Assembly: GCA_903895855.1 (NCBI GenBank)
Contig: CAITVN010000080.1
Coordinates: forward strand, 48,092-112,091
Origin: Oligoflexia bacterium
Lineage (GTDB): Bacteria; Bdellovibrionota; UBA1018
DNA: 64,000 nt
Reading direction: 5' to 3'
In this document: positions 6,807 through 52,710 of the stretch, one piece after another
Numbering within the stretch: the stretch's first letter is position 1
Layout: each line of letters begins with the position of its first letter
Notes under the pieces: model-generated
What the model saw: only the letters and a program-made list of their open reading frames with translations
Databases searched by the model: none
Told to the model about the DNA's origin: nothing
Position numbers and translations under genes: made by a program

Positions 6807-6839
6807 ATGCCAAAAGACTAGCCCCCGTTTTTGAGTTTG

Positions 6840-6911
6840 TCACCCGCAAGTTTGCTTCACGTGTCACCCGCAAGTTTGGCTCGGCTATCACCCGCAAGTT
6901 TGCCTCACTTG
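6840..6911. promoter_or_regulatory. three tandem 24-bp direct repeats (tcacccgcaagtttgNNtc) in divergent promoter region of thiolase / protein-glutaminase genes
   Basis: tcacccgcaagtttg occurs at 6840, 6864, 6888 with exact 24-bp spacing, 35-105 bp upstream of the thiolase start codon (minus strand). Confidence 0.45.
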
Positions 6912-7030
6912 TCTAGCCACCTGCCTAACCCGTAAACACCCCGGCCATCAATCTTGGCCCAGGCCGGCGTCTACGGTCGGCCTTTACGATGAGCCACAAT
7001 GTGGCACTCTAATTGCGATGCTAGTTCACC

Positions 7031-7825
7031 TTGATGAAACCAAAACCGAAAATTGAGCTGAACCACTTAAAAACCCTCATCGCGCTCACTGGCCTAATCG
7101 CTGCGACTTCAGCGTTAATCATGGCAAGTTTGCCCGCCCGAGCTGAACCACTCTACCCAACCAAACACCGACGACTACCCAATGTTGAATTTTCTTCAGA
7201 AAAACAGCTTACTGGTTGGATTCGCTTACTCAATTCTGCTTCGCAAGTGCTCGACTTTGGTTCACTCCCCGACGGAACCCTTCCAGGCGCAGACGGCAAG
7301 CCACTCGAAGTGAGCATTCTCACTGAGACCCAAGCCTTTGCGCTTTTCGATGAACTGTCACATCTGCAAACGCTTGACTTCAATGTGATTCGCGACGGCT
7401 GCTACGCACGCGCGCACGAGATGGCGCAAATTCTAGACTCAAAACAAGTGGTCTCAGCTAAAGTTTTTGTCACCGGAGACCTCAAAGCACGAAGCGTCAC
7501 AGAACCCACGGGATATGCTTATTGGCGGTATCATGTCGCGCCGGTTGTCTTAGTCTTGAATGAGAATCGCCCACACGACAAGCAGCCGAAAGCTGCCTTG
7601 AGGGCTTGGGTTTTTGATCCAGGCCTGTTTGATCGCCCCACCCCCATTCAAGACTGGATAGATGCCCTATCGATCGAAAATCCGTATGACAAGACAGAGA
7701 GACCTTTCTTTTCTTTCAACACTCGTTTCAGGTACTCAATCAATGACCCCGACCCGATTGACCATTACCGCGATGAAGACTTGCTACACCAAAGAGAGAC
7801 ACTCGCTAAACTGAAGCACCATTAG
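7031..7825 (+). CDS. secreted protein-glutamine glutaminase-like (papain-like Cys-His) enzyme
   Basis: signal peptide; DGCYARAHEMAQIL and WRYHVAPVVLVLN match the catalytic Cys/His segments (DGCYARAHKMRQIL / WSYHVAILV) of Chryseobacterium protein-glutaminase as I recall them. Confidence 0.55.
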   Translation: MMKPKPKIELNHLKTLIALTGLIAATSALIMASLPARAEPLYPTKHRRLPNVEFSSEKQLTGWIRLLNSASQVLDFGSLPDGTLPGADGKPLEVSILTETQAFALFDELSHLQTLDFNVIRDGCYARAHEMAQILDSKQVVSAKVFVTGDLKARSVTEPTGYAYWRYHVAPVVLVLNENRPHDKQPKAALRAWVFDPGLFDRPTPIQDWIDALSIENPYDKTERPFFSFNTRFRYSINDPDPIDHYRDEDLLHQRETLAKLKHH

Positions 7826-7838
7826 AAGTCTGATTCTA

Positions 7839-8119
7839 CACTTAGGCTTCGGTGGCAACCCAAATGGATAAAGCTCAATGCCATCATTCGGAACGGCTCC
7901 TGCCTTGCCTGCACTTCACGTAATTCCAAATAAAATAGCTTCGCCTTATTTTGAACTCGGGCGTCGCATGGAGGCGACAATAGCCCGCGAAAACAGGAGG
8001 TTTGCTTCAAAATAAGGTGAAGCTATTTTATTTGGAATTACGTGAAGACGCATCCGCTCGCAGGAATCCTTTGATGGCATTGAGCTTTATCCATTTGGGT
8101 TGCCAGCGAAGCCTAAGTG
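7839..8119. repeat. nested-palindrome repeat element (REP/MITE-like), copy 1: 48-bp outer inverted repeats, 42-bp inner inverted repeats, 50-bp unique core
   Basis: outer arms 7839-7886 / 8072-8119 (1 mismatch), inner arms 7912-7955 / 8006-8047 (1 mismatch); core 7956-8005 ctcgggcgtcgcatggaggcgacaatagcccgcgaaaacaggaggtttgc shared with element at 24759-24810. Confidence 0.75.
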
Positions 8120-8130
8120 ACTAATCACCA

Positions 8131-9333
8131 TTAGAACCGGTAACTCACCTGACCAATGCCCGTGATCGAATAGGCAGACGACGCGAAGAAAAAATCTACC
8201 CCCACGCCCAAGCGCAAATCTCGCTCGAGGTAATAAAAAACAGTCGGCGAAACGCCGTACCCCAAATCAACGAGCGTTACTTTGTATTTTGCCAAGCTTA
8301 AGCTCAAATCAGTAGTCCAATCGTCATTGAGCACGTAACTGCCGCCGAGTTCAAATGCATAATCAGGAAACGATTCGACCAAGCGTTTCAAACTACTCAA
8401 ACGAAAAGAACCTGAAGGCGCGCCGCCGTCTTCACCAGAGAAAACCGGAATGAGACTCAAAAAAGAAGTGGCATCTTTACTATAAAAATAAGAGGTGTGA
8501 GCGCCTCGCAAACTAAATCCGCGAGGATCTGAATACCCCACGCGCAACCCAACTCCCTCACGGCCCAACTCTTCAAAACGAGTTTGGTGCGTGTAGCCTA
8601 CTAAAAGATGAAAATCGAGAGTAGGAATGAGCTCTAACTGAATCACCGGCACATCATCAATACTACGGTATTTTTTGTTGATTCCGACTTCGTTGGCGCC
8701 AACTTCAGTTTCAGAATCTTCGTCGTCGTCATCAACCGCCCCAGTTTCGCGGTCGTCGATGTGATGTTTCACCTTCAGTTTTCGAGTACTGAGCGGCAGA
8801 GTGTATCCCAGCTCAAAATCAACACTACCGCGTCGATACGGATCTAATTGAAAGGCACTTTCAAATTTTATCTGAGATTTAAATTGAATTTGGTCGTTGG
8901 GCTCATACCCAAGGCCGGTTGAAAATGAGTTCAGTAGTGAAAACGAACTCGAATAAGTCATCTGATAACCCAAGAGCCAACTTAATTCTGAAGGTTCTTC
9001 TGGGTAGCTTTCTAGCTCTTCTTTTTCTGCTTTCGTGAGCCAAATATTAGTCAAATCACTCGAGGGCTTTCTCAGCCTTCCGCCTCCAGAAAAAGCCTGG
9101 CTAAAATAGCCGGGCCCCGCTGAACTCAGCGCTTGAAAAAACTGCCTGTCGTCGATGGGTTTGGCGTCATGAGTTTCGTTACGGTCACGAGCATCAACAT
9201 GCGAACGGCCTTGAGAACTCGGTTGAGAACTGGCGTGAGAAGATAAAACAAACGATCCAGAAAACGTCAGCAACAAAAACAAAGAGGCGGCCCTGTTGAA
9301 GGGGCCGCCTCTTAGAGTGCGAAAAACAACCAA
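8131..9333 (-). CDS. outer-membrane beta-barrel protein (hypothetical)
   Basis: C-terminal ...GIGQVSYRF aromatic terminus, alternating amphipathic strands; signal-like region NRAASLFLLLTFSGSFVLSSHASS; 5' end trimmed to TTG 9333 because longer ORF overlaps sod. Confidence 0.45.
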   Translation of the reverse strand: MVVFRTLRGGPFNRAASLFLLLTFSGSFVLSSHASSQPSSQGRSHVDARDRNETHDAKPIDDRQFFQALSSAGPGYFSQAFSGGGRLRKPSSDLTNIWLTKAEKEELESYPEEPSELSWLLGYQMTYSSSFSLLNSFSTGLGYEPNDQIQFKSQIKFESAFQLDPYRRGSVDFELGYTLPLSTRKLKVKHHIDDRETGAVDDDDEDSETEVGANEVGINKKYRSIDDVPVIQLELIPTLDFHLLVGYTHQTRFEELGREGVGLRVGYSDPRGFSLRGAHTSYFYSKDATSFLSLIPVFSGEDGGAPSGSFRLSSLKRLVESFPDYAFELGGSYVLNDDWTTDLSLSLAKYKVTLVDLGYGVSPTVFYYLERDLRLGVGVDFFFASSAYSITGIGQVSYRF

Positions 9334-19674: not shown

Positions 19675-21441
19675 TTAGATTCCGATTGCACCGCCACTGC
19701 CTTCGCAGATCGGGCCAGTACAGATTGGCACTTGGTCAATCGGCACTGGAGTCTCAGTCGGAGTAGGCGTCGGACTCGGTGTCGGATCAGGGGTTGGCTC
19801 TGGCGTGACAGTCGGTGTTGGAGTCGGATCTGGAGTCACCGTCACAGTCGGGCTCGGAGTTGGAGTCGGATCTGGAGTCACTGTCACAGTTGGGCTCGGA
19901 GTTGGAGTCGGATCTGGAGTCACCGTCACAGTTGGGCTCGGTGTTGGAGTTGGGTCTGGAGTCACCGTCACAGTTGGGCTCGGTGTTACAGTCGGTACAG
20001 GACTCGGTGTTGGCGTTGGAGTCGCTGTCGGGCTTGGTACTGGGCTCGGAGTTACGGCAGGGATTTTCTCGCAGTACTGCACTTCAACTTTTGAACCAGC
20101 GGCGCCAGCGTTTTCTACTCGAACGAGATTTTTAGTCGCGCTGTATTCGCCACTCACTAATTGCCCGTCAACTTTGATTTTAATCGAAGCGACGTCAATG
20201 TCTTTCAAAATTTTCGTCAACACGAACTCGTGATTGAGTGTGAGTTTCTGGCTAGTGATAGCGCCAATTTGGGCCAAACCAGGAACGTAATTGGTTGAAG
20301 CTAGATCAACCACTGGACCTTTTGCGTAGTTGATCACATCTAAGTAACCGTAACCGAGTTCGTTTTCACCCGAATGCGGAATGGTTTTCAAATTGTTATA
20401 GAGAATGCCGCCCACGACAAGAGGTTGGGTTCCTTGAAGGACTCTTAATTTCGACAATAGACTGGTAGGGCTGATCGCTGCACAGTCTCTTTTCTTCGCA
20501 GGCACTTCGTAACCATCGGGGTCTGCTACTGGTTTAATGCCGGCCGGATACACCGCACAGATATCATTTTCATCAGCCACAAAGATCACCGCGAGAGCTG
20601 CAGTTTTTCTAAAAAATCCTTTTGCTCTAGCTTCAGTCAAGTGCCCCGTGTCTAGCGCATTCGTCAGAGAATACAACCCCTCTTCACCACCGTCACTAAA
20701 ACGATCTACGGGCTGATGGGTCATGAGAAATTTGAGGTTTGACCGAATCTGGGTGATCGATTGTTTCTTAGAACTCAATACCGGGCCAACCGAAGCATAC
20801 TGCCAGAGGCGCCCCATGTAAGGCGACCGACTGCCGTGAGCAGGCATCACGGCGATTTGGTAATCGACATCTTTTGGGAGCTCACGAACAAAGGCATCAA
20901 TGCCGTCAGCGATTTGAGACTTCTCTTGAACCATTGATCCTGAAGTATCAGTCACAAATAAAATATCTAATGATTGTGTAATGGTCACTGCGGGCTGCTG
21001 AAACTGATCGATTGAACAGTCAGCCACCGCTACTGGCGAAGGCACGACAGAAGGAGTCGGTGAAGGCGAAACATTGTGGCCACATCCGGCTGAGTGGTGG
21101 TGATCTTTGTCGTCATCGTCTTTGTCATGATTGCCCTTTTGTTTTTCGTGCTCCCTTTCGTTTTCTCTATCTTTTTCTCTATCTTGGCGTTCTTTATCTT
21201 TCGCCCTAGCGCGACTCAAGAGTTCCATAATTCTGTCAGTGAATGACATGTGCTTATCGACTGACTGGTCACTCTGAATTTGGGTGGTTTGAGCTGAACC
21301 CGCAGCCGAGTCAGCTGCGACTGGAACGCCTGGTTCAGATTGGCAGCCAGCACCAAAGGCAGTTAGTGATGAAAGGCTAATTAATACGAGCACTTGTCTC
21401 GACTTAAACCTACGACTCAAGAGTTGGATTTGGGTTTTCAT
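19675..21441 (-). CDS. secreted/lipoprotein von Willebrand factor A (vWA, MIDAS) domain protein with charged His-rich segment and C-terminal Pro/Thr tandem repeats
   Basis: signal peptide with FGAGC; MIDAS DTSGSM (DxSxS); [13 protein letters not shown]...DDDDKDHHH low-complexity; 4x [14 protein letters not shown]; Cys-rich tail CTGPICEG. Confidence 0.7.
19790..20010. repeat. 42-bp tandem coding repeats (about 4.5 copies) encoding PT-rich linker of vWA protein
   Basis: unit ggagtcggatctggagtcaccgtcacagttgggctcggagtt repeated head-to-tail; generates spurious ORFs on + strand (19663..20094, 19805..20233, 19815..20135). Confidence 0.8.
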
Positions 21442-24703: not shown

Positions 24704-24720
24704 TTCACTTTTAATCTCAT

Positions 24721-24846
24721 TTAAGGATTTGGCAGATTTGGTTTGAGTTATTTTTGGAACAAACCTCCTGTTTTCGCGGGCTTTTGTCGCATCCGTGCGA
24801 CGCCCGAGTCCAAAAATAACTCAAACCAAATCTGCCAAATCCTTAA
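24721..24846. repeat. nested-palindrome repeat element copy 2 (inverted orientation): 38-bp inverted-repeat arms flanking the same 50-bp core as 7956-8005
   Basis: arms 24721-24758 / 24809-24846 perfect; core 24759-24810 is reverse complement of copy-1 core (about 44/50 identical) while arms are unrelated to copy-1 arms. Confidence 0.75.
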
Positions 24847-24970
24847 GTGCGTAAGGGCAGGTTAACGCAAGGATGCGGTCCCATTCTTGGGTGGCCCGAG
24901 CTTGAGCGCCGCTAACCCGTGTTGAACGATAATTCAAATGAGGAGACGCTCCAATCTGGGCGAAGGGCCT

Positions 24971-25873: not shown

Positions 25874-27508
25874 ATGACTGGGTGGCTCAAAGAAAATTGT
25901 AAAGATTTATCTAGTAAGCGTCGAAAAGTTGTCATGTCTAAATTGACCAAACTAATACCGACGCATGAGATCAATCGACCCCGCTCTTTTCTTTGTTTGG
26001 GAGCTTTGACCGTATTTATCTACTTTGTATTTAATAATTTTACACCCCTAGCAAACGTATTTGCCGAACCGGTGTTGATCATTCACACCAACGATCTGCA
26101 CTCACACCTCGACCACGCAGACACGCCAGAAATCGGTGGCTACGCCGCTGTGAAAACTAAAATCGATGAACTCAAGCTCGAAGCCGAAAGCCAAGGCATT
26201 CCCGTTTTGGTTTTAGACGCCGGTGACTTCACCGAAGGCAGCGAATTCAACTACGCCGACAAAGGCCTCTGGGGCTGGCAAGCCATGAGCCAAATGGGCT
26301 ATGACGCTGTCACTCTAGGTAATCACGACTGGCTTCAAGGTTTAACCGACCTATCGCGAGTCATCGACGCTACTCAGCCCGGCTTTTCGGTTCTCGCCGC
26401 AAATTTTGATTTCGATAAGGCCAAATTTCCCGTGCTCGGTAAATTCATCAAGCCCTCAATTGAACTCTCGGTTGGACAGCAAAAAATAGCCATCTTAGGC
26501 CTCACGACCAGCGACCTGACTTACAGTTGGCGCGCCCGTGATGGAGCTATAGGCCCCGCAATACCGGCGGCATGGGATCAAGTACCCAAGCTTCGATCGC
26601 GAAACGATTTTCTCATCGCACTGACCCACATTGGTTACCAATCAGATATCGCGCTAGCGAAAAAAGTCGAAGGAATTGACCTGATCGTCGGCGGCCACAG
26701 CCACACCCGACTCGATCAAGTTGACTTAACAAAAAATGAGAAAACCCATCGCCCCATTCCTATCGTGCAAACTGGCTCGGCTGGTCGGTACGTGGGCCGA
26801 CTTCTGGTTGACCTCACCAAGGGTGAACCCGTGCAGGTTTTGTCGTATCAACTGGTGCCAATCTACAGCGCTGAAGCTAAAATCTCTCAACTGACTGACA
26901 CCGTAGAAAAAGCAAAAGCTGCGTACCGAGATCACTTCGGTCCGAGCTGGCTTTCTGAAATCATCGGTTACTCAGAAGTGAACTTAGACACCCAAGGCGG
27001 ATCAGGTCCGACCACATTTTCTAATCTCGTAGCCGATGGCATGCGAGAAAGTTCGAAAGCCGACGTGGCATTTGACATGGGAGTTTTTGAGGGATTTTCT
27101 CAGCCGGCCGGCCCAATCACCCGAGAATCACTGATCAAGCTGTATCCACGTTCATTTGATTTTAACCAGAAATATGGCTGGAACATTTGGACCGTAAAAA
27201 TCAGAGGGTGGGTTTTAAAATCGGCTATCAAACTCTTGGCAAAAATCGACGGTGGTTTCACTTTTTCAGGCATCACCTACACCACCAGCAGTAAAGGAAA
27301 GCTCAGCAATTTTAAAATCAACGGCTCAAAATTAAAATTATTACACAATTATACTTTAGCCGTGCCAGAAGGGGTGGGCCGTGGGGCTCATGACATCGCC
27401 CAAATTCTCAAGACCATCTTGAAAAACCCGACAAACACGGGCATTCCCGTCTGGACCGCTCTCGAAGATCAATTCAGAAAACACAGCCCCATCAAGGCTA
27501 TTCCTTAA
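25874..27508 (+). CDS. metallophosphoesterase / 5'-nucleotidase family protein
   Basis: IIHTNDLHSHL, VLDAGDFTEGS, GNHDW, GGHSH calcineurin-like motifs plus C-terminal 5'-nucleotidase domain; N-terminal TM; start uncertain. Confidence 0.7.
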   Translation: MTGWLKENCKDLSSKRRKVVMSKLTKLIPTHEINRPRSFLCLGALTVFIYFVFNNFTPLANVFAEPVLIIHTNDLHSHLDHADTPEIGGYAAVKTKIDELKLEAESQGIPVLVLDAGDFTEGSEFNYADKGLWGWQAMSQMGYDAVTLGNHDWLQGLTDLSRVIDATQPGFSVLAANFDFDKAKFPVLGKFIKPSIELSVGQQKIAILGLTTSDLTYSWRARDGAIGPAIPAAWDQVPKLRSRNDFLIALTHIGYQSDIALAKKVEGIDLIVGGHSHTRLDQVDLTKNEKTHRPIPIVQTGSAGRYVGRLLVDLTKGEPVQVLSYQLVPIYSAEAKISQLTDTVEKAKAAYRDHFGPSWLSEIIGYSEVNLDTQGGSGPTTFSNLVADGMRESSKADVAFDMGVFEGFSQPAGPITRESLIKLYPRSFDFNQKYGWNIWTVKIRGWVLKSAIKLLAKIDGGFTFSGITYTTSSKGKLSNFKINGSKLKLLHNYTLAVPEGVGRGAHDIAQILKTILKNPTNTGIPVWTALEDQFRKHSPIKAIP

Positions 27509-32248: not shown

Positions 32249-34036
32249 CTACTTCATGAGTTGAATGTAGGTGGGTCGCAAGACCTGCCTCATCAAGAAA
32301 GAGCTGGCGTTTTGAATCAAAGTGGCTTGAGTCTTGATTTCTGAGTATTGAGCCCCAGCCCCAGCAGCACTCGTAATGATGCGCCAGTAGTGATGATCGA
32401 GGGTTGAAAGCGAAACCGTTCGAACAGGTGACATCGCGTTGCCCCAGTCTTCTAGAGTGAAAAGTTCCCACACATTGATGTGATTCGAGTTGATATTAAA
32501 GCCTTCGCCGCCACCATTTTCGGCAGTCAAATACACTCCTTCAGAGTCTCGAAAGGCACCTTTATAAACCTTGGTTCCATCATTTTGGGTATACGGTATT
32601 TCTAGGTAATCAAACCCACACCACTGTCCTGCCTGATTACCCCCCACTTCACTAAACATGACGAGTGAGGCCTCTTCAGAAAAATCTGACCTTCGCAGGC
32701 AGCGATTATCTTTCAACGTATTAGAATTCTGAAGAATCACTTTAACTCCTTCTAAATCAACCAGGTCAAACGACTCCCAAACTGAAGGCTGCACACCAGC
32801 AACATTCACCTCGCCACCTCCGCCGAGCTTTGCTTGAAGAAAATGATTTTTGTCTGAAGACCTAAACCCAACTGTTCCGTTTGGTTTAGACACTGACTTA
32901 AAAATCTCCCAAGAATCTAATTGAGTTGCAGAGGTGTCTGTTTTGCCACCACCCCCATTTTTTGCCGAAATGTAATTACCGTTGGGCAATTTGAAGGCAA
33001 TGCTATTCGAAGACTGCGAGTTCAAATAACCGAGGTCAATCAATCTAAGCGTCGTCTCAGGTATGATGTAAGTAGCCTCGGCATTTAAGTTACTTTGATT
33101 CTGCAAGTTCACTCCCACATAAGTGCCAGTTTGAGTCTTCAGTGCAACTCGACGGCCATTTAACTCAACCACTTTGAGAGTGGTGGTGAGGTCTTTGAGT
33201 TTTCCTAGACCAGTGAGAAGAGTCGAAGTTAAATTTGAAGTCCCCAGCAGCATACCATAATAGGTGTGCAAATAATCAGTCTTCGAAACCGATCTGAAGT
33301 GATCAAACAACTCCCAGTCGTCGATGTGGTCTTTCGAAGCCGTAATTGCGCCTAATCCGTTGTCGGCACTCAAGTACAAGCCATTCTTTTTTGAGCGATA
33401 GGCAAAGGTTCCATCAAGAAGGTCTACCCGGTAAAACGTTTCATCGGTGCCAATCCAGCGTGAATCAAACTTTACGGTGCCATCGTCATAAGCACGTAAG
33501 TATTTCTCAAGGTACTGGTGGCGAATCGCAACGGGTTCGCCATTTAACCAAATTCCTTTAAATTGAGCTTGTTTAATATTTGAAGTCACGGCGGTCGCTT
33601 CAAGAATCCACTGGCCATCGGTTTTTTCAGTAATTCTCAAAAACTTGCCGTTTGCTGCCACAAATGCCCAAGTATTCGAAAATAGGTCTAAAGAAACCAT
33701 CCTAAAAGTCTCGTTCATCCCAGGATTCGACACCTTCATCGCGCGAATGAGACCCGAATCTGAATTGATCAAACTGAAATACAATCCGCCATTCGTCTTA
33801 AGTTGAGCCTGATTGTCAAACCCAGTGTTGTCAAATGACTGGGCCGGACCAATTTTTTGAGACTCGGCGGCAATGGTTTTCAGTTCTGACGGGTCAGATT
33901 CTTGAATACTGAGATACAGACCGTTATAGGCACGATAGGCCCTACTTCCCGCATTTGCACCAGAAGTCGTTAAAGTAGCGATTACAAGTAGCATCGATGT
34001 CATCATTTTTTTCATAGGCTTTATTCCTTTTTGCAC
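32249..34036 (-). CDS. secreted protein of tandem fascin-like beta-trefoil repeats (paralog A)
   Basis: signal peptide; about 11 repeats of G-x-Y-L-S/T-A...G...W-E-L/I-F pattern (e.g. KKNGLYLSADNGLGAITASKDHIDDWELF); about 75% identical to 37580..39391. Confidence 0.55.
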   Translation of the reverse strand: MQKGIKPMKKMMTSMLLVIATLTTSGANAGSRAYRAYNGLYLSIQESDPSELKTIAAESQKIGPAQSFDNTGFDNQAQLKTNGGLYFSLINSDSGLIRAMKVSNPGMNETFRMVSLDLFSNTWAFVAANGKFLRITEKTDGQWILEATAVTSNIKQAQFKGIWLNGEPVAIRHQYLEKYLRAYDDGTVKFDSRWIGTDETFYRVDLLDGTFAYRSKKNGLYLSADNGLGAITASKDHIDDWELFDHFRSVSKTDYLHTYYGMLLGTSNLTSTLLTGLGKLKDLTTTLKVVELNGRRVALKTQTGTYVGVNLQNQSNLNAEATYIIPETTLRLIDLGYLNSQSSNSIAFKLPNGNYISAKNGGGGKTDTSATQLDSWEIFKSVSKPNGTVGFRSSDKNHFLQAKLGGGGEVNVAGVQPSVWESFDLVDLEGVKVILQNSNTLKDNRCLRRSDFSEEASLVMFSEVGGNQAGQWCGFDYLEIPYTQNDGTKVYKGAFRDSEGVYLTAENGGGEGFNINSNHINVWELFTLEDWGNAMSPVRTVSLSTLDHHYWRIITSAAGAGAQYSEIKTQATLIQNASSFLMRQVLRPTYIQLMK

Positions 34037-35010: not shown

Positions 35011-36816
35011 ATGATAGCAATCGCCGAAATGCTGACAACTCTGATTACGTTATTTTTATTCGTCGAAACCCAAACCCACGCTTCTGTCGATCAAGTAGCC
35101 GTCGGAGGGTTTCACACCTGTGCTATCTCGGGCGACACCCTGACCTGTTGGGGAAACAATCAACTCGGCCAAACCGAAGTGCCAGCTGATCTTGGCATAC
35201 CGCTTTCAGTTGCAGCAGGAACCACTCGAACCTGCGTGCTCGCGCTGAAAGACTCAAAAAAATCGCTTCACTGTTGGGGTGAAGGTAACAACGAAGAGAA
35301 AGAATACCCTCGCCCATCAGATGTCGAAGGCATGACTGCAATCAAAGGCGGAGTAGAAGGCTTTTGTGGAGTGTATCAAGACTCTAGCACCCTCAAGTGC
35401 TGGGGGTCGCCATACTCGATACCACGACGCCATTCGCTACCCGACAGCCTGGCATTTGGAGTCGGCTGGGCGTGTGGACTTTTACCCGATGGTGCAATCG
35501 CTTGCTCGGGAGAAGTTGATCCTGCCTCTCAAAAAATTCCCGCTCAAGTACTGGGCGGCAACGCGGGCCAGATTTGCTGGGCAGACTCAACCGGCTTACA
35601 CTGTGAAACGTCGCTTGGGGCTAACATTCCGGGATCACTCAAGACTCCTTCGATCAACAGACAAATCAGAAAAATCGTCGGAGGACTTCGATTTGGCTGC
35701 GCACTCGACGAAAGTCGCACGCTCATTTGCTGGGGCAACGATTTTGGATCGCTGCCCTGGAATAAGAAAATTGGTCGCCAGGTAGAAGCTGTAGACGACG
35801 TCTTTTCGTCAGGCGTGGGCTTACACCTTTGTCTAAAGAGAAATGGCGCGCTAGAATGTTTTGGTGACAATTCGTACGGGCAACTCGATGTCCCGCAATC
35901 TCTCAGCCCAGCAAAACCGACACCTGCGGCGCCAGAAAACATAGCCAAAAACGTGAGCGATCAAGATGTGCGCGTCACTCAAATTGGTGTTGGCGCCTGG
36001 CATACCTGCGCTAATGTCAATGACACTCCTAAATGCTGGGGCGGTTTCACGCTCTATGGCCCGGCAAAAATTCCTTCTCGGGTAAAAAATGTCATTCGGT
36101 TTACAGGCGGTGCCATGCACACTTGCGCTCTCACTGAACCAGAAACGGGTAAACGAAAAGTCGAGTGCTGGGGAGCACAAGATCCAGAAAATCTAACAGG
36201 ACCTCCACTTTTTCCGATTTTTCCGGTGCCTGAAGATTTAGGTTTTGTCACCGAAATTGCCTCGGGCAACACTCATGTCTGTGCACTCAATTCCGATCAC
36301 GAGATGCGCTGCTGGGGAGAGCTAGACCCTCCTCACTTTGTCGCGGGGGTCAGGTCAATGGCATTAGGCCTTCATTTTACTTGCTACATTGACTTAGAAG
36401 GGTCAGTTCATTGCTCAGGCCCAGACAGTCCTAATTTACCTGAGAATGAATTGAAAAATGTAAAGGCGATCGGAGCCACACTCGAATCGATCTGTGCAGC
36501 GTTCGAAAGCGAAGTGAAATGCTTTAATCTAGAAAAATTAATGCCAGCTTCGCTCAAACTAGTAGGAGTGCGCAAGATTGTTGGCGGCTGGAGCCATGTC
36601 TGCTTTTTAACTGTGTCAGAAGAGTTGCACTGTGTGAGCGAGAAGAAATTAGAAAGCCTCATCAGCTCGCCCATTCCTGAGCACCTATCTGAAGTACAAG
36701 ATGTCGTTTCACAGTCTGGTCAACACATCTGCATCCAGACACAAACAGGGGTAGCTTGTTATGGCAACAACTCGTTTGGCGGTCAATCCCTCACCCCTTC
36801 GAACGGAGACCTATGA
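35011..36816 (+). CDS. secreted RCC1-repeat (beta-propeller) protein
   Basis: signal peptide; about 10 repeats with CWG/GQL signatures (VGGFHTCAISGDTLTCWGNNQLGQ, LECFGDNSYGQLDVP, KCWGG, ECWGAQD, RCWGELD). Confidence 0.6.
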   Translation: MIAIAEMLTTLITLFLFVETQTHASVDQVAVGGFHTCAISGDTLTCWGNNQLGQTEVPADLGIPLSVAAGTTRTCVLALKDSKKSLHCWGEGNNEEKEYPRPSDVEGMTAIKGGVEGFCGVYQDSSTLKCWGSPYSIPRRHSLPDSLAFGVGWACGLLPDGAIACSGEVDPASQKIPAQVLGGNAGQICWADSTGLHCETSLGANIPGSLKTPSINRQIRKIVGGLRFGCALDESRTLICWGNDFGSLPWNKKIGRQVEAVDDVFSSGVGLHLCLKRNGALECFGDNSYGQLDVPQSLSPAKPTPAAPENIAKNVSDQDVRVTQIGVGAWHTCANVNDTPKCWGGFTLYGPAKIPSRVKNVIRFTGGAMHTCALTEPETGKRKVECWGAQDPENLTGPPLFPIFPVPEDLGFVTEIASGNTHVCALNSDHEMRCWGELDPPHFVAGVRSMALGLHFTCYIDLEGSVHCSGPDSPNLPENELKNVKAIGATLESICAAFESEVKCFNLEKLMPASLKLVGVRKIVGGWSHVCFLTVSEELHCVSEKKLESLISSPIPEHLSEVQDVVSQSGQHICIQTQTGVACYGNNSFGGQSLTPSNGDL

Positions 36817-37571
36817 AGATCATGAGTTTCACCTCGCTTCTGACTACCTTTTTCGCCATTGCCAATTTTTCGCCCAGTATCGCACCCGCACTTGCCGGTG
36901 ATCCGGCTGATGATTCACCTCATGATTCATCTCATGTTACAATCGAGCCCGCTCAGATTGATTACCTTTGCATCGCAAGCTTAGTGCAGTTTGCTCCGAA
37001 CACTTCTAAACCCACATTATTAAACTCAGATTCAGCCCCAATCGTCTTTCGACGCAAAGTAGCGAGTTCACTTGGCGGTTCACCAGGTATTTCATCAAAC
37101 AATATAATTGAAGAAACGTATCGATTTAGAATTGCTGCCACCAATCTGTTAACTAATTTAACCAATCGGGCCGAAGAGATAATCCCCCTTCATTCTTTAA
37201 GAGAAGAATTTCCGGGTGTTTCACACCCGAAAGTTGTCGTGTCGTTTACACAATCTGGCCCAGTCAGCAATTGGCCTGGTCAGTATGTATTTGGTGCCAT
37301 TCAAAATGATCAAGGCGACTTCGCTGGTTGCCAAACATTCAGCTATCCTACCGTTAGGTCTTGCAGTGCCACAGTCGCAGTGAATGACGCCGCCCGCGAC
37401 TTTTCGGGTCTTGCCCAACTACACTGTGCTTCGACTGACGAATTGAAGCAAGATCAGGTCAAGCTGTTCAGTTCCAACTCAAAGGCTGACGTCGGAACCC
37501 AAGAACTATTGAGTGAAGTGACTCGCACCGTAAAAGCTTCAGCAAAAAAGACGCCATCGAAAAATCAATAA
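36813..37571 (+). CDS. hypothetical secreted protein
   Basis: ATG 36813 after GGAGA SD; signal peptide MKIMSFTSLLTTFFAIANFSPSIAPALA. Confidence 0.4.
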   Translation: MKIMSFTSLLTTFFAIANFSPSIAPALAGDPADDSPHDSSHVTIEPAQIDYLCIASLVQFAPNTSKPTLLNSDSAPIVFRRKVASSLGGSPGISSNNIIEETYRFRIAATNLLTNLTNRAEEIIPLHSLREEFPGVSHPKVVVSFTQSGPVSNWPGQYVFGAIQNDQGDFAGCQTFSYPTVRSCSATVAVNDAARDFSGLAQLHCASTDELKQDQVKLFSSNSKADVGTQELLSEVTRTVKASAKKTPSKNQ

Positions 37572-37579
37572 TTTTAGCC

Positions 37580-39391
37580 TCACGGCTTCATCAATTGAAT
37601 GTAGTTTGGTCGCAAAAACTGACGCATCAAGAATGAGGTACCATTCTGAATCAACTTTGTCTGCGCAGTAACCTCAGAGACTTGAGTTGAATCAGCGGGA
37701 TAAACAATTCTCCAAAAGTGCTGATCTAAGGTCGAAATCGAAACCGTTCGCACAGGCGAATTCGCGCTACCCCAATCATTTAGAGTAAACAATTCCCACA
37801 CATTAATGTGGTCGCTATTAATCTCAAACGCTTCGCCACCACCGTTACTGGCCGTTAGGTAATTTCCCTCGGTATTGCGAAAAACGCCTTTGACCACCTT
37901 AGAGCCGTCAGGCTGAATGTACGGAATTTCAATGTAATCAAATGAACACCAAATTCCTGCTTGATTGCCTCCAACTTCAGGATTCATAGCCAAGCTGGCT
38001 TCATCAGCAAGACCTATCGTGCGCACACACCGGTTGTCTTTCAAGGTATTCGAGTTTTGAAGAATCACCTTTTTTCCTTCTAGGTCGACCACTTCGAACG
38101 ACTCCCACTGGCCCGATTGCGTTCCCGTCACATTCACACTACTGCCTCCACCCGAAGCCGCTTGAAGGTAGTGCTTTTTGTCAGAAGTTCGAAATGACAG
38201 CACTCCGTTCGGTTTCGATACGACCTTAAAGATTTCCCACGAGTCGACGGCGGTTGCAGTCGTACCGACGCTAGTACCACCGCCATTTAAAGCAGTGAGG
38301 TATTTGCCATTAGAAAGTTTGATTGCAACTGCATTGGCTGCCAAAGAATCGAGATAACCTAAATCAACGAGGTTCATCACTGCCTCTGAAGGTATTTGAA
38401 TAGTCTCGGCCTTAAGCGGCTGTTGCGCCTCTGCGTCTAGAGTCACATAATTGCCGGACTGGGTCTTGAGCGCAACCCGTCGGCCATTGAGCTCGACCAC
38501 CTTAAGCATGGTTGTGAGGTCTTTGGTTTTTCCAACTCCACTCAAAAGGTCAGACGTTTTCGATGCGGTACCCAAGAGCATGCCATAGTAGGTATGAAGG
38601 TAATCGTTCTTCGCTGTCGTTTGAAAATGGTCAAAAAGCTCCCAGTCGTCAATGTGATCTTTCGACGCGGTGACCAAACCCAGCCCGTCTTCGGCACTGA
38701 AATACAAACCGTTCTTTTTTGAGCGATAGGCAAACGTACCGTCAAGAAGATTCACTCTGTAGAATGTTTCGTCTGCACCAATTCGATTAGAGTCGAACTT
38801 TAATGTTCCATCATCGTATGCCCGCAGATACTTTTCAGGGTATTGATGACGAATTGCTACCGGCTCACCATTTAACCAAATTCTTTTAAACTGAGCTTGT
38901 TTAATAGAAGTTGAGGTAGCAGTGGCCTCCAGAACCCATTTGCCATCTGGCTGTGCTGTAATTCTCAGATACTTACCATTCGCGGCCGCAAACGCCCAAG
39001 TGGTGTAAAACGGATCGAGCGAAACCAATCTGAAAGTCTCATTGGGTCCCGGCGTCGAAGTTTGAATTGCACCCATAAGTCCTGAGTTAAAGTCTATGAC
39101 ACTAAGGTAAAAGCCATCGCTTGTTTTCAACTGCGCTTGATCACCTCCTATTATTGGGTTTTCAAAACTCTGAGAAGGACCGATTCGTTGAGAATCAGCT
39201 ACGACAGTTTTCAATCCGGTTGATGATGAATCTTGAACACTGAGATAAAGATTATTGTAGGCACGATAAGCTCTTGGGCCGGCGCTTGCCAGTGTTGAGA
39301 TCGACAGACTCGCAGCGAAAACGATTAAAACAGCGAGAGCACTCTTTGTCAGATTCAGCATTTTATTTTTCATAAACGTCTTTCTTTTCAT
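37580..39391 (-). CDS. secreted protein of tandem fascin-like beta-trefoil repeats (paralog B)
   Basis: 603 aa; collinear with paralog A throughout (shared RAYRAYN, GEPVAIRHQY, DHIDDWELFDHF, NVWELFTL, SFLMRQ). Confidence 0.55.
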   Translation of the reverse strand: MKRKTFMKNKMLNLTKSALAVLIVFAASLSISTLASAGPRAYRAYNNLYLSVQDSSSTGLKTVVADSQRIGPSQSFENPIIGGDQAQLKTSDGFYLSVIDFNSGLMGAIQTSTPGPNETFRLVSLDPFYTTWAFAAANGKYLRITAQPDGKWVLEATATSTSIKQAQFKRIWLNGEPVAIRHQYPEKYLRAYDDGTLKFDSNRIGADETFYRVNLLDGTFAYRSKKNGLYFSAEDGLGLVTASKDHIDDWELFDHFQTTAKNDYLHTYYGMLLGTASKTSDLLSGVGKTKDLTTMLKVVELNGRRVALKTQSGNYVTLDAEAQQPLKAETIQIPSEAVMNLVDLGYLDSLAANAVAIKLSNGKYLTALNGGGTSVGTTATAVDSWEIFKVVSKPNGVLSFRTSDKKHYLQAASGGGSSVNVTGTQSGQWESFEVVDLEGKKVILQNSNTLKDNRCVRTIGLADEASLAMNPEVGGNQAGIWCSFDYIEIPYIQPDGSKVVKGVFRNTEGNYLTASNGGGEAFEINSDHINVWELFTLNDWGSANSPVRTVSISTLDQHFWRIVYPADSTQVSEVTAQTKLIQNGTSFLMRQFLRPNYIQLMKP

Positions 39392-40168: not shown

Positions 40169-41080
40169 ATGAAAGGAATTTGCAGCATGTCAACCCCCAC
40201 TTTTATTCGCTCTCTTAAACCACTTACGCCATTAGCGCTCAGTTTCATCTCTGCGCTGGCAATCGCAGACATCCATGCCGACGAATTGGGTGATCACAGT
40301 TTAGAAATTCATCAACGCCGCCTTCACGTTGGCGAGGTACAAATCGACAGTGGATTTGTAAAAACTCAAGACGGCAGCGGAACCGACGTTAGAATTCAAA
40401 CGTCTCTCGCATCGTTTGACAACACGTTTGGAGACGCAAAGACACTTTACCTTCAATGGACATACCTCGCCGATCAAAAGGGCTACCGAGTACACTTTGG
40501 ACTTGAAGATTCTCAAGTTCTCTTTTTTTGCACCACCTCGAACGGCACGAGCCTCAGTTTTCTTAAATTTATGTCTGATTGCAAACCCAGCACCTTTGCT
40601 GTCGGCGGCAAAGTCCTCGACGTACAAGTCGACACAAACACATCGCGCTGGGCTGTTCGTTGGGCCGAACTCACCGGGGTGATCAATGCACTACAGAACG
40701 GAAACGATGACAGTTACCAGCATAAGCGGCTCAATTTTCTAGGGGGCGCAAGCATTGACACGATTTTTCCGGGCAACACCACAGTGACCCGACTCAACGC
40801 CGGAATGATCGGCATGATTCGCTCAAGAGACAATCACTGGGAACTGCGTGGACAATTCAATTATCGCCCCAACGTTGGCAATATGGCCGACTATGCAATC
40901 GAAGCTAAAGCCTCGGCAGGTTACAACTTCATGATGGGCCCAAGCGCGTTTGCGACAATCGCGGCCACCAGCGAATACGCCCATTGGAGTATGCCCTGGC
41001 ATTCGATCGGTGATTTCACCTCAGATACCGCGACCGACACCGTTTATACTGGACTCTTATTTGATATCAAATGGCAATAG
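40169..41080 (+). CDS. hypothetical secreted/outer-membrane protein
   Basis: signal peptide LALSFISALAIADIHA; beta-rich; ends ...FDIKWQ. Confidence 0.4.
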   Translation: MKGICSMSTPTFIRSLKPLTPLALSFISALAIADIHADELGDHSLEIHQRRLHVGEVQIDSGFVKTQDGSGTDVRIQTSLASFDNTFGDAKTLYLQWTYLADQKGYRVHFGLEDSQVLFFCTTSNGTSLSFLKFMSDCKPSTFAVGGKVLDVQVDTNTSRWAVRWAELTGVINALQNGNDDSYQHKRLNFLGGASIDTIFPGNTTVTRLNAGMIGMIRSRDNHWELRGQFNYRPNVGNMADYAIEAKASAGYNFMMGPSAFATIAATSEYAHWSMPWHSIGDFTSDTATDTVYTGLLFDIKWQ

Positions 41081-41117
41081 ATCATGCGAAAATAAGGGGT
41101 TAGTTTACCGAGGTTGA

Positions 41118-50679: not shown

Positions 50680-51123
50680 ATGAATCACTCACCCCACAGT
50701 CTTTGGAAAAATACCCCGACCATTGCCGAACTCAATCAACTATCGAAAAACACGATTCACGAGTCTCTCGGAATTGAGTTCACTCAAATAGAAAATGATT
50801 TCATTGAAGCCCGCATGCCGGTTGACCGACGCACCCATCAACCGTTCGGACTGCTTCACGGCGGAGCTTCAGTGGTACTCGCCGAATCTCTCGGAAGCGT
50901 GGCTTCAACCCTAGTGACTTGGGGCGAGGGCAAGACTTGCGTCGGAGTCGAAGTCAACGCCAATCACTTAAAAAGCGTTAAAGCGGGCGCCGTACTCGGA
51001 CGAGTCAGCGCAATCAAAATCGGAAGAACTCTGCATGTCTGGGAAATTCGACTACACGACGAATCTTCTGGCGCACTCGTTTGCATCAGCCGGTTAACCG
51101 TTGCGGTTTCGGCCAGAAACTAA
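50680..51123 (+). CDS. PaaI/hotdog-fold acyl-CoA thioesterase
   Basis: GLLHGGASVVLAESLGS hotdog thioesterase signature; 147 aa. Confidence 0.7.
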   Translation: MNHSPHSLWKNTPTIAELNQLSKNTIHESLGIEFTQIENDFIEARMPVDRRTHQPFGLLHGGASVVLAESLGSVASTLVTWGEGKTCVGVEVNANHLKSVKAGAVLGRVSAIKIGRTLHVWEIRLHDESSGALVCISRLTVAVSARN

Positions 51124-51196
51124 CCCCCACCGAGAATTTTCAAGGGCTCTTCTTTTTGGTTTTTTGAAGACGTCCTCGCCTTTGGATCGACGTACG

Positions 51197-51324
51197 TTTT
51201 TTAAGAGTTGCGCGTAGGTGCTCATCTATTCTTGCTCCTCTTGCGAGGCACGATGCCGAGAGCAAGAAAACAGGATGTTTGTGGAGCAAGAACAGATGAG
51301 CACCTACGCGCAACTCTTAAAAAA
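51197..51324. repeat. perfect 31-bp-stem inverted repeat with structured 66-nt loop between convergent genes (possible bidirectional terminator or mobile/structured element)
   Basis: ttttttaagagttgcgcgtaggtgctcatct (51197-51227) vs agatgagcacctacgcgcaactcttaaaaaa (51294-51324); inner palindrome ttcttgctc/gagcaagaa and repeated gagcaagaa. Confidence 0.6.
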
Positions 51325-51402
51325 TACACAACACAGTGACTACGGCTGCGGAATGTCTTCTAAAAACCAAAAAGAAGAGCCCTTGAAAATTCTCGGTGAC
51401 GA

Positions 51403-52710
51403 TTAAGTTAACTGCTTTTCGAGTTTTAAAAATCGGCCTTTACGAAGCTTACCCTGTAAACCGATCACGCGATTAGCAGGGTTAAAGAGTCTTCGTGCCA
51501 AGTCTTGAATGTCTTCGCGGCTAACCGCACGAAATCTCGCTTTCCAATCAGCCAAATTCTTAGGCAACGGCAAATCAAACAACTCAATCTCGCCAAGCCG
51601 AATACCCCAAATTCCCGCTCTTTCAAAGAGCTGATCTGCTTCACGTGATAACCTCGCTTGCACTTTTTCAAACTCGGCTTCTGGTATCAATTCGCTTTGA
51701 AGTTTTTCAAACTCTTCTAGAATCAAGTCGATCACTTCACTTAGATTTCGATCACTCACCCGAAACGAAACTTCGAATAGCCCACAAATACTGAGCGTGT
51801 CGGTCGATGCGTTGATATCGTAGAGAAGCCCACGATTTTCACACAAACTACGCTGTAAACGCGACGACAACCCGTCGTCGAGTAGGCGTTCAAGAAAGAG
51901 CTGAGAAAAAAATTCAGGCTCACTTTCTGAAAACCCGCGAAAGCTTATTAGAGTCTCAATTTGTGAGCTCGACTCTTCAAGATAATAAAGCCGTGGCCCG
52001 ACAAACGTTCCATGCACAGGGTAACTACCCTCTAAACCAGAAAAATCACCCGTGGGAAACTTCGAGGCAAATGAGAGGTACTTTTCACCCCAGTAAAAAA
52101 AATCAGACTCATTCACCGCCCCTGCACACACGACGATCATTTGAGAGGGGGCATAGAAATGATTGAAAAAATGCCGAACATCTTCGGAAGTCAAGGCCCC
52201 TACCGAAGGTTTTCGCCCTAAAATCGGCTTCGCCACTGGCTCAGAGCCGTAAATCATCGAGCGACTGACATTTTCTAAGAGGTTTTCACTTCCTTGTTCG
52301 TCGAGCTCTTCTTGAATCTCTTCAAACACAATTCCTTTTTCAGTTTCGATTTCTTTCAAAAGTGGACCTGAAAACAAGAGCCCTAGCGCTCGAATAGCTG
52401 CCTCGAGGTTTTCACGTGGCACTTCAATTGAATAATTACTGTACTCTCTAGTCGTCGCACCTTGAAGGCCATCGCCCAGAGTTTCGAAATGTGCGTTGAG
52501 CTCAGTGCTAGAGGGATACTCGGCACACCCCCGAAATAACAAATGCTCAACGAAGTGACCAATACCCGAAAATTTTGAATTTTCAAATCGTGGCCCGGAC
52601 TTCACAAACACTTGCAGCACTGCAAACTTGCTGATCGTATCATTAATGTACGGAGCACAGATCAACCTTAGGCCATTGCCTAAAGTACGGGTATCAATTT
52701 GACTCAACAT
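51403..52710 (-). CDS. M16-family zinc peptidase (pitrilysin-like)
   Basis: inverted zinc motif HFVEHLLF (HxxEH); 435 aa. Confidence 0.7.
   Translation of the reverse strand: MLSQIDTRTLGNGLRLICAPYINDTISKFAVLQVFVKSGPRFENSKFSGIGHFVEHLLFRGCAEYPSSTELNAHFETLGDGLQGATTREYSNYSIEVPRENLEAAIRALGLLFSGPLLKEIETEKGIVFEEIQEELDEQGSENLLENVSRSMIYGSEPVAKPILGRKPSVGALTSEDVRHFFNHFYAPSQMIVVCAGAVNESDFFYWGEKYLSFASKFPTGDFSGLEGSYPVHGTFVGPRLYYLEESSSQIETLISFRGFSESEPEFFSQLFLERLLDDGLSSRLQRSLCENRGLLYDINASTDTLSICGLFEVSFRVSDRNLSEVIDLILEEFEKLQSELIPEAEFEKVQARLSREADQLFERAGIWGIRLGEIELFDLPLPKNLADWKARFRAVSREDIQDLARRLFNPANRVIGLQGKLRKGRFLKLEKQLT

What the first reader, a model, noticed from the sequence alone, without database searches (positions are those of the whole stretch)
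7839..8119. Large nested-palindrome element (48-bp outer and 42-bp inner inverted repeats around a 50-bp core) between convergent genes
Two concentric, near-perfect inverted-repeat pairs with one mismatch each enclose a unique 50-bp core. The core itself contains a short hairpin (gtcgca-loop-tgcgac) and a cccgcgaaaacaggagg motif. This is far longer and more elaborate than an ordinary terminator. It has no coding capacity; the internal ORF 7822..8010 is an artefact. The architecture suggests a MITE/REP-type mobile or structured-RNA element.
Basis: seen in the sequence. Interest (0 to 1): 0.65.

Follow-up and report, generated by a model that had tools for sequence, protein, structure and literature searches.

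The report
Hairpin repeats: shared core, private arms
The nested palindrome is real. It is one of three copies in this window of a non-coding hairpin element whose roughly 70-base centre is conserved while the long, near-perfect arms differ at every site, a layout unlike ordinary terminators or classical bacterial mini-transposons.

Summary
At 7839-8119 (extended 7831-8127), a 48-nt outer and a 42-nt inner inverted repeat, each with one mismatch, enclose a 50-nt core between convergent stop codons.

The element is not unique. Two more copies lie at 51121-51405 (E2, same nested geometry, also between convergent genes) and 24718-24849 (E3, inner hairpin only, opposite orientation).

- **Conserved part:** only the core plus about 11 nt of adjoining arm is shared. 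E1 and E3 are 94% identical there. E2 is diverged, with compensatory changes in two small core helices.
- **Private parts:** the distal 30 nt of the arms, the spacers and the outer arms are unrelated between copies, yet perfectly paired within each copy.
- **DNA-level copying:** arm differences between copies are mirrored on both arms, including an indel, and wobble pairs are not favoured. This points to arm-to-arm copying rather than RNA-level selection.
- **Insertion signal:** E1 is flanked by an 11-nt direct repeat holding both stop codons (p about 7e-4).
- **What it lacks:** no T-tract, promoter, conserved ORF, Rfam family or nearby transposase.
- **No relatives:** none found in genomes, metagenomes, phages or plasmids.

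Best reading: a lineage-restricted, MITE/REPIN-like hairpin repeat family in which a small conserved module is surrounded by locus-specific palindromes. These were probably built and kept perfect by replication template switching. The mechanism is inferred, not shown.

The parts
7814..7827 (.). Left copy of the flanking direct repeat AAGCACCATTAGAA. It contains the TAG stop (7823-7825) of the + strand gene.
   Evidence: 13 of 14 match. 11 nt are exact, p about 7e-4 in 20000 shuffles.
7831..7886 (.). E1 outer left arm (near-perfect from 7839).
7887..7913 (.). E1 left spacer, 27 nt. It is not complementary to the right spacer and is not conserved in E2.
7914..7955 (.). E1 inner left arm, 42 nt. 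The single mismatch is G7943 opposite T8018.
7945..8015 (+). Conserved module: short inverted ends TTATTTTGAA / TTCAAAATAA plus the core. This is the only part shared with E3 (and, diverged, with E2).
7956..8005 (+). E1 core. Helix P1 is 7958-7962 with 7983-7987. Helix P2 is 7963-7967 with 7974-7978. Conserved single-stranded GAAAACAGGAGGTTTG is at 7989-8004 (AGGAGGT 7995-8001), which may form a weak AAAC/GUUU mini-hairpin.
8006..8047 (.). E1 inner right arm, 42 nt.
8048..8071 (.). E1 right spacer, 24 nt.
8072..8127 (.). E1 outer right arm (near-perfect to 8119).
8123..8136 (.). Right copy of the direct repeat AATCACCATTAGAA. It contains the stop (8131-8133, TTA on +) of the - strand gene.
51121..51405 (+). 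E2, second nested copy. Outer arms 51121-51171/51355-51405 (44 nt near-perfect at 51128-51171/51355-51398). Spacers 51172-51196 and 51325-51354. Inner arms 51197-51238/51283-51324. Core 51239-51282. It lies between convergent stops at 51121-51123 and 51403-51405.
24718..24849 (-). E3, single-level copy in reverse orientation. Arms 24718-24758/24809-24849 (41 nt, one mismatch), core 24759-24808. It lies in a 369-nt spacer between two - strand genes.

Best explanation
E1 belongs to a lineage-restricted family of non-coding, hairpin-forming intergenic repeats in an isolated, probably Bdellovibrionota-related, genome.

The heritable unit is a module of about 70 nt. It has short inverted ends (TTATTTT(T)GRA) around a core that folds, as a single strand, into a small stacked hairpin (P1+P2) followed by the conserved tail GAAAACAGGAGGTTTG. 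This module has been copied to several intergenic sites (inferred from 94% identity between E1 and E3).

Around it, each site carries its own long, near-perfect inverted repeats. I infer these are made and kept perfect at the DNA level, by reverse-complement copying of one arm onto the other. Candidate processes are replication template switching (quasipalindrome correction and expansion) or intra-palindrome conversion. They are not conserved transposase-binding ends.

The element sits where it does no harm, exactly filling the gap between convergent stop codons in E1 and E2. When transcribed from either side it would form a hairpin of about -190 kcal/mol. That hairpin would act as a barrier to read-through, to exonucleases, or as an RNase III substrate. 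This functional step is inference only.

Shown: the anatomy, the family, conservation confined to the module, DNA-symmetric arms, the direct repeat at E1, and the reality of all three copies in independent assemblies. Inferred: mobility of the module, the origin of the arms by template switching, and any effect on transcripts.
For: - **Three copies only.** The covariance model scores 100.7, 100.1 and 62.6 bits; the next best hit is 17 bits.
- **Core similarity.** E1 and E3 cores match at 46 of 49 positions. E1/E2 and E3/E2 cores are significantly similar (z 5.5 and 7.4).
- **Same core fold.** All three cores fold into the same P1-P2 topology. E2 carries different base pairs (CUUGC/GCAAG for CGGGC/GCCCG; GGCA/UGCC for GUCGC/GCGAC).
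- **Private arms.** The distal 30 nt of the arms are unrelated (z 0.1-1.2). Full arms of E1 and E3 are similar only through the proximal 11 nt (z 2.95).
- **Mirrored differences.** In that proximal part E1 and E3 differ by TTTT versus TTTTT and GAA versus GGA, and both changes are mirrored on the other arm.
- **No wobble preference.** Each 41-48-nt arm pair has exactly one mismatch. The wobble lies on the core's AGGAGG strand in only 1 of the 3 inner pairs.
- **Nothing else like it.** No long palindrome without a core exists in the window.
- **Insertion signal.** E1 is bracketed by an 11-nt exact direct repeat that contains both stop codons (p about 7e-4). Convergent genes with overlapping stops exist elsewhere in the window (27505-27508).
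- **Real sequence.** Independent assemblies give identical sequence for E1, E2 and E3.
- **Published mechanism.** Template switching is documented to create perfect stems in one event, to fix pairing, and to homogenise and expand inverted repeats (PMC8794818, PMC5941160; abstracts of PMC8604942 and PMC13100816 as listed).
Against: - Only three copies from one uncultured genome are available.
- The core was not found in 596 Gb of genomes, in JGI metagenomes, or in viral contigs. All hits were chance ribosome-binding sites.
- No empty orthologous site could be examined, because the nearest homologues are only 37-41% identical.
- Template switching does not by itself explain why the inner arms are 42, 42 and 41 nt in all copies. 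It also does not explain why E1 and E2 share the whole nested geometry (185 versus 183 nt between outer arms).
- A direct repeat flanks only E1 and does not abut the palindrome exactly.
- No mobilising gene lies in the window.
- An ancient RNA family under strong structural selection on both strands could produce a similar picture.
Confidence: 0.4

Rival explanations
1. Structured RNA family. The elements are cis-acting or small RNAs in which a conserved apical three-way junction displays a Shine-Dalgarno-like AGGAGGU (or, on the other strand, an anti-SD-like ACCUCCU) at the tip of a long helix. The helix needs only to pair, so its sequence drifts. The RNA would bind ribosomes or a protein, or be processed by RNase III.
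For: Compensatory changes occur in P1 and P2 of the core, and a sequence-conserved single-stranded tail follows them. Extreme folding energies are found on both strands. All copies lie downstream of a gene. E3's AGGAGG strand is the strand of its flanking genes. AGGAGGT is stronger than any real ribosome-binding site among 33 genes checked.
Against: - There is no promoter-like or terminator-like signal.
- There is no Rfam match, even for the isolated module.
- Stems are perfect Watson-Crick with no G-U enrichment, and an indel is mirrored on both arms. This is the signature of DNA copying.
- E2 has AGGAUG instead of AGGAGG.
- AGGAGGT is not over-represented in the window.
- Perfect 42-48-bp duplexes are unusual for functional bacterial RNAs.
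Confidence: 0.2
2. Self-nesting. The nested form arose when a complete inner element (arm-core-arm, 128-134 nt, like E3) inserted into the central part of an older element of the same kind, splitting its centre into the two spacers.
For: The lengths fit in both nested copies. In E1, 134 + (27+24) = 185. In E2, 128 + (25+30) = 183. So the split centres would be 51 and 55 nt, close to a 44-50-nt core. E3 shows the single-level form exists on its own.
Against: The joined spacers do not resemble a core in either orientation (z 0.5-2.0), nor each other. Yet the outer arms are as perfect as the inner ones (one mismatch in 44-48 nt), so the outer element is not visibly older. No target duplication flanks the inner elements (and inspection).
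Confidence: 0.2
3. DNA-level recognition site. The core hairpin plus its conserved 3' single-stranded tail is the cis site of a structure-specific enzyme (for example an HUH/Y1 nuclease, as for REP/RAYT or IS200/IS605 ends). The enzyme moves the module through a single-stranded or hairpin intermediate and, with a fixed reach, generates the 41-42-nt arms.
For: A covarying hairpin next to a sequence-conserved single-stranded motif is how HUH enzymes read their sites (established knowledge, not tested here). The constant arm length suggests a ruler. E1 has a flanking direct repeat. The tip may fold as a long stem with two small hairpins.
Against: No such gene lies in the window or in 27 kb of extra flanks. 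No known system makes inverted target duplications of 30 nt. The second small hairpin is weak and shows no covariation.
Confidence: 0.12
4. Just elaborate bidirectional terminators that evolved in place at each locus.
For: E1 and E2 fill the gap between convergent stop codons almost exactly.
Against: A 50-nt core that is 94% identical at unlinked loci cannot arise independently. No T-tract follows any stem. The genome's ordinary terminator-like hairpins have 20-nt arms with A/T tracts. E3 is not between convergent genes.
Confidence: 0.04

Closest known systems
MITEs, e.g. Neisseria Correia elements (my knowledge of the family)
   Same: Small (130-300 nt), non-coding, intergenic, able to fold into a long hairpin, several copies per genome, often next to gene ends. 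E1 has a flanking direct repeat of 9-14 nt.
   Different: In MITEs the terminal inverted repeats are the conserved, transposase-bound part and the interior varies. Here the termini are unrelated between copies and only the centre is conserved. Two of the three copies have no flanking direct repeat.
REP / REPIN elements mobilised by RAYT (Y1) transposases (my knowledge)
   Same: Extragenic palindromes, common between convergent genes, that form hairpins. They are thought to move as single-stranded hairpins.
   Different: REPs are short (20-40 nt), sequence-conserved palindromes present in tens to hundreds of copies. In REPINs the two arms are conserved and the loop is free. The pattern here is the reverse, and no RAYT gene was seen.
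BIMEs of enterobacteria (PU - conserved central motif - inverted PU; my knowledge)
   Same: A conserved non-palindromic central motif lies between inverted palindromic units, at gene 3' ends.
   Different: The flanking units in BIMEs are themselves conserved REPs. There are no private 40-50-nt perfect arms and no nesting.
Template-switch (quasipalindrome) mutations that create and maintain perfect hairpins (PMC8794818, PMC5941160)
   Same: One-step reverse-complement copying explains perfect arms, mirrored substitutions and indels, the absence of wobble intermediates, and locus-specific arm sequence.
   Different: The documented events are mostly short (a few to tens of nt) and sporadic. They do not account for a recurring conserved core, a constant 41-42-nt arm, or a repeated two-level geometry.
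Intrinsic (Rho-independent) bidirectional terminators
   Same: Position between convergent stop codons, and dyad symmetry usable on both strands.
   Different: There is no U/T tract. The stems are 2-5 times longer. A 50-nt structured loop takes the place of a 3-8-nt loop, and that loop is shared between loci.

Membership tests
MITE | Terminal inverted repeats conserved among copies (transposase-binding ends) | tested here: not met
   Distal inner arms and outer arms of E1, E2 and E3 show no similarity (z -2.1 to 1.95). Arms are unique in the window.
MITE | Target-site duplication flanking each copy | tested here: inconclusive
   E1 has an 11-nt exact (13 of 14) direct repeat, p about 7e-4, but offset 11 and 3 nt from the palindrome. 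E2 and E3 have nothing above chance.
MITE | Small, non-coding, multicopy | tested here: met
   Elements are 132-297 nt. ORFs inside are mirror-image artefacts. A six-frame core peptide query found nothing in 5.8 billion proteins. The window holds 3 copies.
MITE | Parent insertion sequence with matching ends in the genome | not testable with these tools
   Only about 91 kb of this genome is reachable. No transposase lies in it.
REP / REPIN | Short sequence-conserved palindrome as the repeated unit | tested here: not met
   The repeated unit is the non-palindromic core plus 8-11 nt of arm. The long palindromic parts are private.
REP / REPIN | Associated RAYT (Y1 transposase) gene | not testable with these tools
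   None lies in the window. A weak Y1_Tnp gene was seen only in a distant relative (L033), which lacks the element.
Intrinsic terminator | G+C-rich hairpin with a short loop, followed by a U tract | tested here: not met
   The scan finds no terminator-like site at the base of any of the long stems, and no T tract follows them (sequences).
Any Rfam RNA family | Score at or above the family gathering threshold | tested here: not met
   The whole window has 0 matches at gathering score. Only plant microRNA-precursor models match, at 37-46 bits against thresholds of 83-100, because any long hairpin fits them. The isolated module gives nothing at E up to 10.
Invertible DNA switch (inverton) | Segment found in both orientations between its inverted repeats | tested here: not met
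   All independent contigs reaching the cores of E1, E2 and E3 show one orientation. Assemblies would hide a minority orientation, so this is weak evidence.

The most novel reading that the evidence does not exclude
The roughly 70-nt module is a new kind of mobile or recombinogenic seed. Wherever it lands, a dedicated mechanism with a fixed reach builds a perfect, locus-specific palindrome of 41-42 nt per arm around it, and can repeat the process one level out. This yields 'private-arm' hairpins. The mechanism could be a structure-specific nuclease or polymerase, or hairpin-primed synthesis. Under this reading the arms are products of the element's propagation, not recognition sites. That would be a mode of insertion creating inverted rather than direct duplications, which has not been described in bacteria.
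Probability: 0.15. Interest if true: 0.8.

Novelty: new variant of a known kind. Interest (0 to 1): 0.55.

Why it matters
Bacterial intergenic palindromic repeats are normally defined by conserved arms. A family with a conserved structured centre and site-specific, near-perfect arms reverses that logic.

If the arms are generated around the module, these loci would be a natural, repeated example of template-switch or hairpin-primed palindrome formation. Such formation is usually seen only as sporadic mutations. The loci would also show how long perfect hairpins can arise in one step at gene ends.

Practically, such elements break metagenome assemblies, and several contigs end at them here. They also create spurious mirror-image ORFs and microRNA-like hits. 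Recognising them improves annotation of Bdellovibrionota-like MAGs.

Tried and rejected
1. **Copies elsewhere.**
   - The core 19-mer in genome contigs and the core 18-mer in metagenome contigs gave only chance ribosome-binding-site hits, mostly a Sphingomonas gene start. Their flanks were inspected.
   - A core 18-mer and 20-mers from the three inner arms found nothing in viral contigs.
   - blastn of the inner element against plasmids and phages found nothing.
   - A chimeric query of all six reading frames of the core against 5.8 billion proteins found nothing at E up to 10.
2. **Orthologous empty sites.** The flanking proteins have no relatives above 41% identity. Loci from the nearest relatives (L031-L034, L041) carry neither the core nor any long palindrome. 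In L041 the M16 peptidase gene is followed by a convergent gene after 9 nt, but the neighbour differs.
3. **Extra sequence from the same genome.** L014, L027 and L030 add about 27 kb and contain no further copy.
4. **'Spacers are a split old core'.** Not supported statistically. The spacers are also not similar between E1 and E2, nor complementary.
5. **Degenerate outer arms around E3.** None above chance.
6. **Coding.** The small ORFs are mirror images produced by the palindrome. The reading frame after the AGGAGG motif is open in E1 and E2 but not conserved, and it is closed in E3.
7. **Flip-flop of the core.** Not seen in any assembly.
8. **Assembly artefact.** Rejected, because independent assemblies agree.
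9. **attC-like ends in E1 (CTTAGGC...GCCTAAG).** These are in the wrong order for an integron attC site. I judged this by eye only.

Full report
**1.

The interval contains two concentric inverted repeats.
- Outer pair: 7831-7886/8072-8127 (56 nt, 93% complementary). Its inner 48 nt (7839-7886/8072-8119) have a single mismatch.
- Inner pair: 7914-7955/8006-8047 (42 nt, one mismatch), around a 50-nt core at 7956-8005.
- Between the pairs lie two non-complementary spacers of 27 and 24 nt.

Neither arm recurs in the window, and shuffles never reproduce them. Either strand folds at about -190 kcal/mol, z about -20.

The element fills the gap between the stop of a glutaminase-like gene (TAG 7823-7825) and the stop of a convergent ORF (8131-8133). 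An independent metagenome contig carries the identical sequence (L016).

**2. It is one of a family**

A window-wide search for long inverted repeats returned only five pairs, and all belong to three loci.
- **E2 (51121-51405)** has the same two-level geometry. Outer arms are 51 nt (44 near-perfect). Spacers are 25 and 30 nt. Inner arms are 42 nt and the core is 44 nt. The outer arms are 183 nt apart, against 185 in E1. It also lies between convergent genes, a thioesterase and an M16 peptidase, and both stop codons are the outermost triplets of the palindrome.
- **E3 (24718-24849)** has only the inner level: 41-nt arms and a 50-nt core, in the opposite orientation. It sits in the middle of a 369-nt spacer between two genes on the minus strand.

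The cores are homologous.
- E1 and E3 match at 46 of 49 positions.
- E2 is diverged but significantly similar (z 5.5 and 7.4).
- A covariance model built on core plus 12 nt of each arm finds exactly these three sites (100.7, 100.1 and 62.6 bits) and nothing else above 17 bits with filters off.
- E2 and E3 are identical in several independent assemblies.

**3. What is conserved and what is not**

*The core.* All three cores fold the same way. A 5-6-bp helix P1 encloses a 4-6-bp hairpin P2 with an asymmetric internal loop. A tail GAAAACAGGAGGTTTG follows, which may form a weak AAAC/GUUU mini-hairpin. E2 keeps both helices with different pairs (CUUGC/GCAAG for CGGGC/GCCCG; GGCA/UGCC for GUCGC/GCGAC). 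So folding of a single strand matters. The tail is conserved in sequence (15 of 16 in E2).

*The arms.* Conservation extends about 11 nt into the arms (TTATTTTGAA in E1, TTATTTTTGGA in E3, TATTCTTG in E2) and then stops abruptly. The distal 30 nt of the arms are no more alike than shuffled sequence (z 0.1-1.2). The outer arms and spacers of E1 and E2 are likewise unrelated. The arms also match nothing else in the window.

So a module of about 70 nt is shared. Everything around it is private to the locus, yet internally almost perfectly complementary.

**4. The palindromy looks like a DNA property**

- Every arm pair of 41-48 nt has exactly one mismatch.
- The three inner-arm mismatches are transitions. 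They give a G-U on the strand carrying AGGAGG in E1, but an A-C on that strand in E2 and E3. So wobble pairs are not favoured on one transcript (from the sequences).
- Where E1 and E3 differ in the proximal arm, an extra T and an A-to-G change, the same differences are mirrored on the other arm.

A mirrored indel is what arm-to-arm copying produces. It is hard to obtain by independent compensatory mutations.

Replication template switching is documented to create perfect stems in one event and to repair pairing in existing stems (PMC8794818). It is also documented to correct imperfect inverted repeats to perfect ones in proteobacteria (PMC5941160). The abstracts of PMC8604942 and PMC13100816 (listed) describe homogenisation and expansion of repeat arms. 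I therefore take DNA-level copying as the most likely source of the private arms. It does not explain the constant arm length or the repeated two-level geometry, which remain unexplained.

**5. Signs of insertion**

E1 is bracketed by AAGCACCATTAGAA (7814-7827) and AATCACCATTAGAA (8123-8136). Eleven bases are exact, p about 7e-4. Each copy holds one of the two stop codons.

A single copy would give convergent genes with overlapping stops (caTTAGaa). That arrangement exists elsewhere in the window (27505-27508). This fits an insertion with a 9-14-bp target duplication that preserved both reading frames.

However, the repeats are offset from the palindrome, and E2 and E3 have none.

**6. What it is not**

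- Not an intrinsic terminator, and no sigma-70-like promoter is present. The window's ordinary terminator-like hairpins have 20-nt arms.
- Not in any Rfam family. The only hits are plant microRNA-precursor models far below threshold, which any long hairpin attracts.
- Not coding. The internal ORFs are mirror images of one another and are not conserved.
- No transposase, integrase, reverse transcriptase or Cas gene is nearby. The window is ordinary chromosome with enolase, BipA, SOD, NifU, QueF, Mla and others.
- No evidence of inversion of the core.

**7. Distribution**

The host appears to be an isolated lineage. The best homologues of two flanking proteins are 37-41% identical, and several are labelled Bdellovibrionales or Bdellovibrionota.

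The core was absent from the genome and metagenome collections, from viral contigs and, by blastn, from plasmids and phages. The nearest relatives sampled lack it.

About 27 kb of additional sequence from the same genome holds no further copy. That gives three copies in roughly 91 kb.

**8. Verdict**

The 'MITE/REP-type or structured RNA' reading is partly right: this is a repeated, non-coding hairpin element. But it fails the defining test for MITEs and REPs, because the arms are not the conserved part.

The best explanation (confidence about 0.4) is a lineage-specific repeat family. A small conserved module has spread to several sites and is surrounded by locus-specific palindromes made and maintained by DNA-level reverse-complement copying. 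Any terminator-like or RNase III-substrate role would be secondary.

Rivals are an RNA with a conserved apical motif, self-nesting of elements, and a recognition site for a structure-specific enzyme.

The finding is a new variant of a known kind and of moderate interest. It would rank higher if whole-genome data confirm that the arms are generated around the module.

Noticed in passing
window 51121-51405 and 24718-24849: Two further elements with the same conserved core as the finding. One is nested like it, between convergent genes. The other is a single-level hairpin in reverse orientation between tandem genes.
   Followed up: yes
L035/L036/L038 ends (window 51290, 51299, 51281); L044 start (window 24855); L014/L015 ends (window 7754): Independent metagenome assemblies repeatedly break inside or beside the elements, although the arms are shorter than k=141. 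This suggests coverage loss at the hairpins or population heterogeneity.
   Followed up: partly
window 51260-51277 vs 51283-51300: In E2 the 3' part of the core (GAGCAAGAAAACAGGATG) resembles the start of the right inner arm (GAGCAAGAACAGATG), z 2.85 and 35 of 2000 shuffles. This is a possible trace of internal copying.
   Followed up: partly
window 6838-6913: A 24-nt unit repeated 3.2 times (78% matches) in the divergent region between the thiolase-like gene and the glutaminase-like gene. Possibly operator or regulatory repeats.
   Followed up: no
window 19812-19995: A 42-nt tandem repeat, 4.4 copies at 92%, inside the 588-aa ORF that weakly matches a Bdellovibrio MIDAS adhesin model. It is a coding repeat.
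   Followed up: no
window 27505-27508; 37571-37580; 41080-41118: Convergent gene pairs with overlapping or nearly abutting stop codons. The genome tolerates zero-length convergent spacers, which makes the inferred pre-insertion state of E1 plausible.
   Followed up: partly
window, 33 ATG-start genes: Only 10 of 33 genes have even a 4-mer Shine-Dalgarno-like motif upstream, and none has AGGAGG. The AGGAGGT in the E1 and E3 cores is stronger than any real ribosome-binding site seen here.
   Followed up: partly
window 32249-34036 and 37580-39391: Two paralogous proteins of about 600 aa with DUF7910, fascin-like and FRG1-like domains flank an RCC1-repeat protein (35011-36816).
   Followed up: no
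L033 16153-17725 (Bdellovibrionales MAG GCA_018645025.1): A weak Y1_Tnp (IS200/RAYT-type) gene followed by a 900-nt non-coding gap in a distant relative. The element studied here is absent from that locus.
   Followed up: no
L030 6790-8744 (about 5-7 kb beyond the window start): A 491-aa protein with a weak HNH match next to an EVE-domain protein, preceded by a 358-nt AT-rich gap. Possibly a small defence or mobile island.
   Followed up: no
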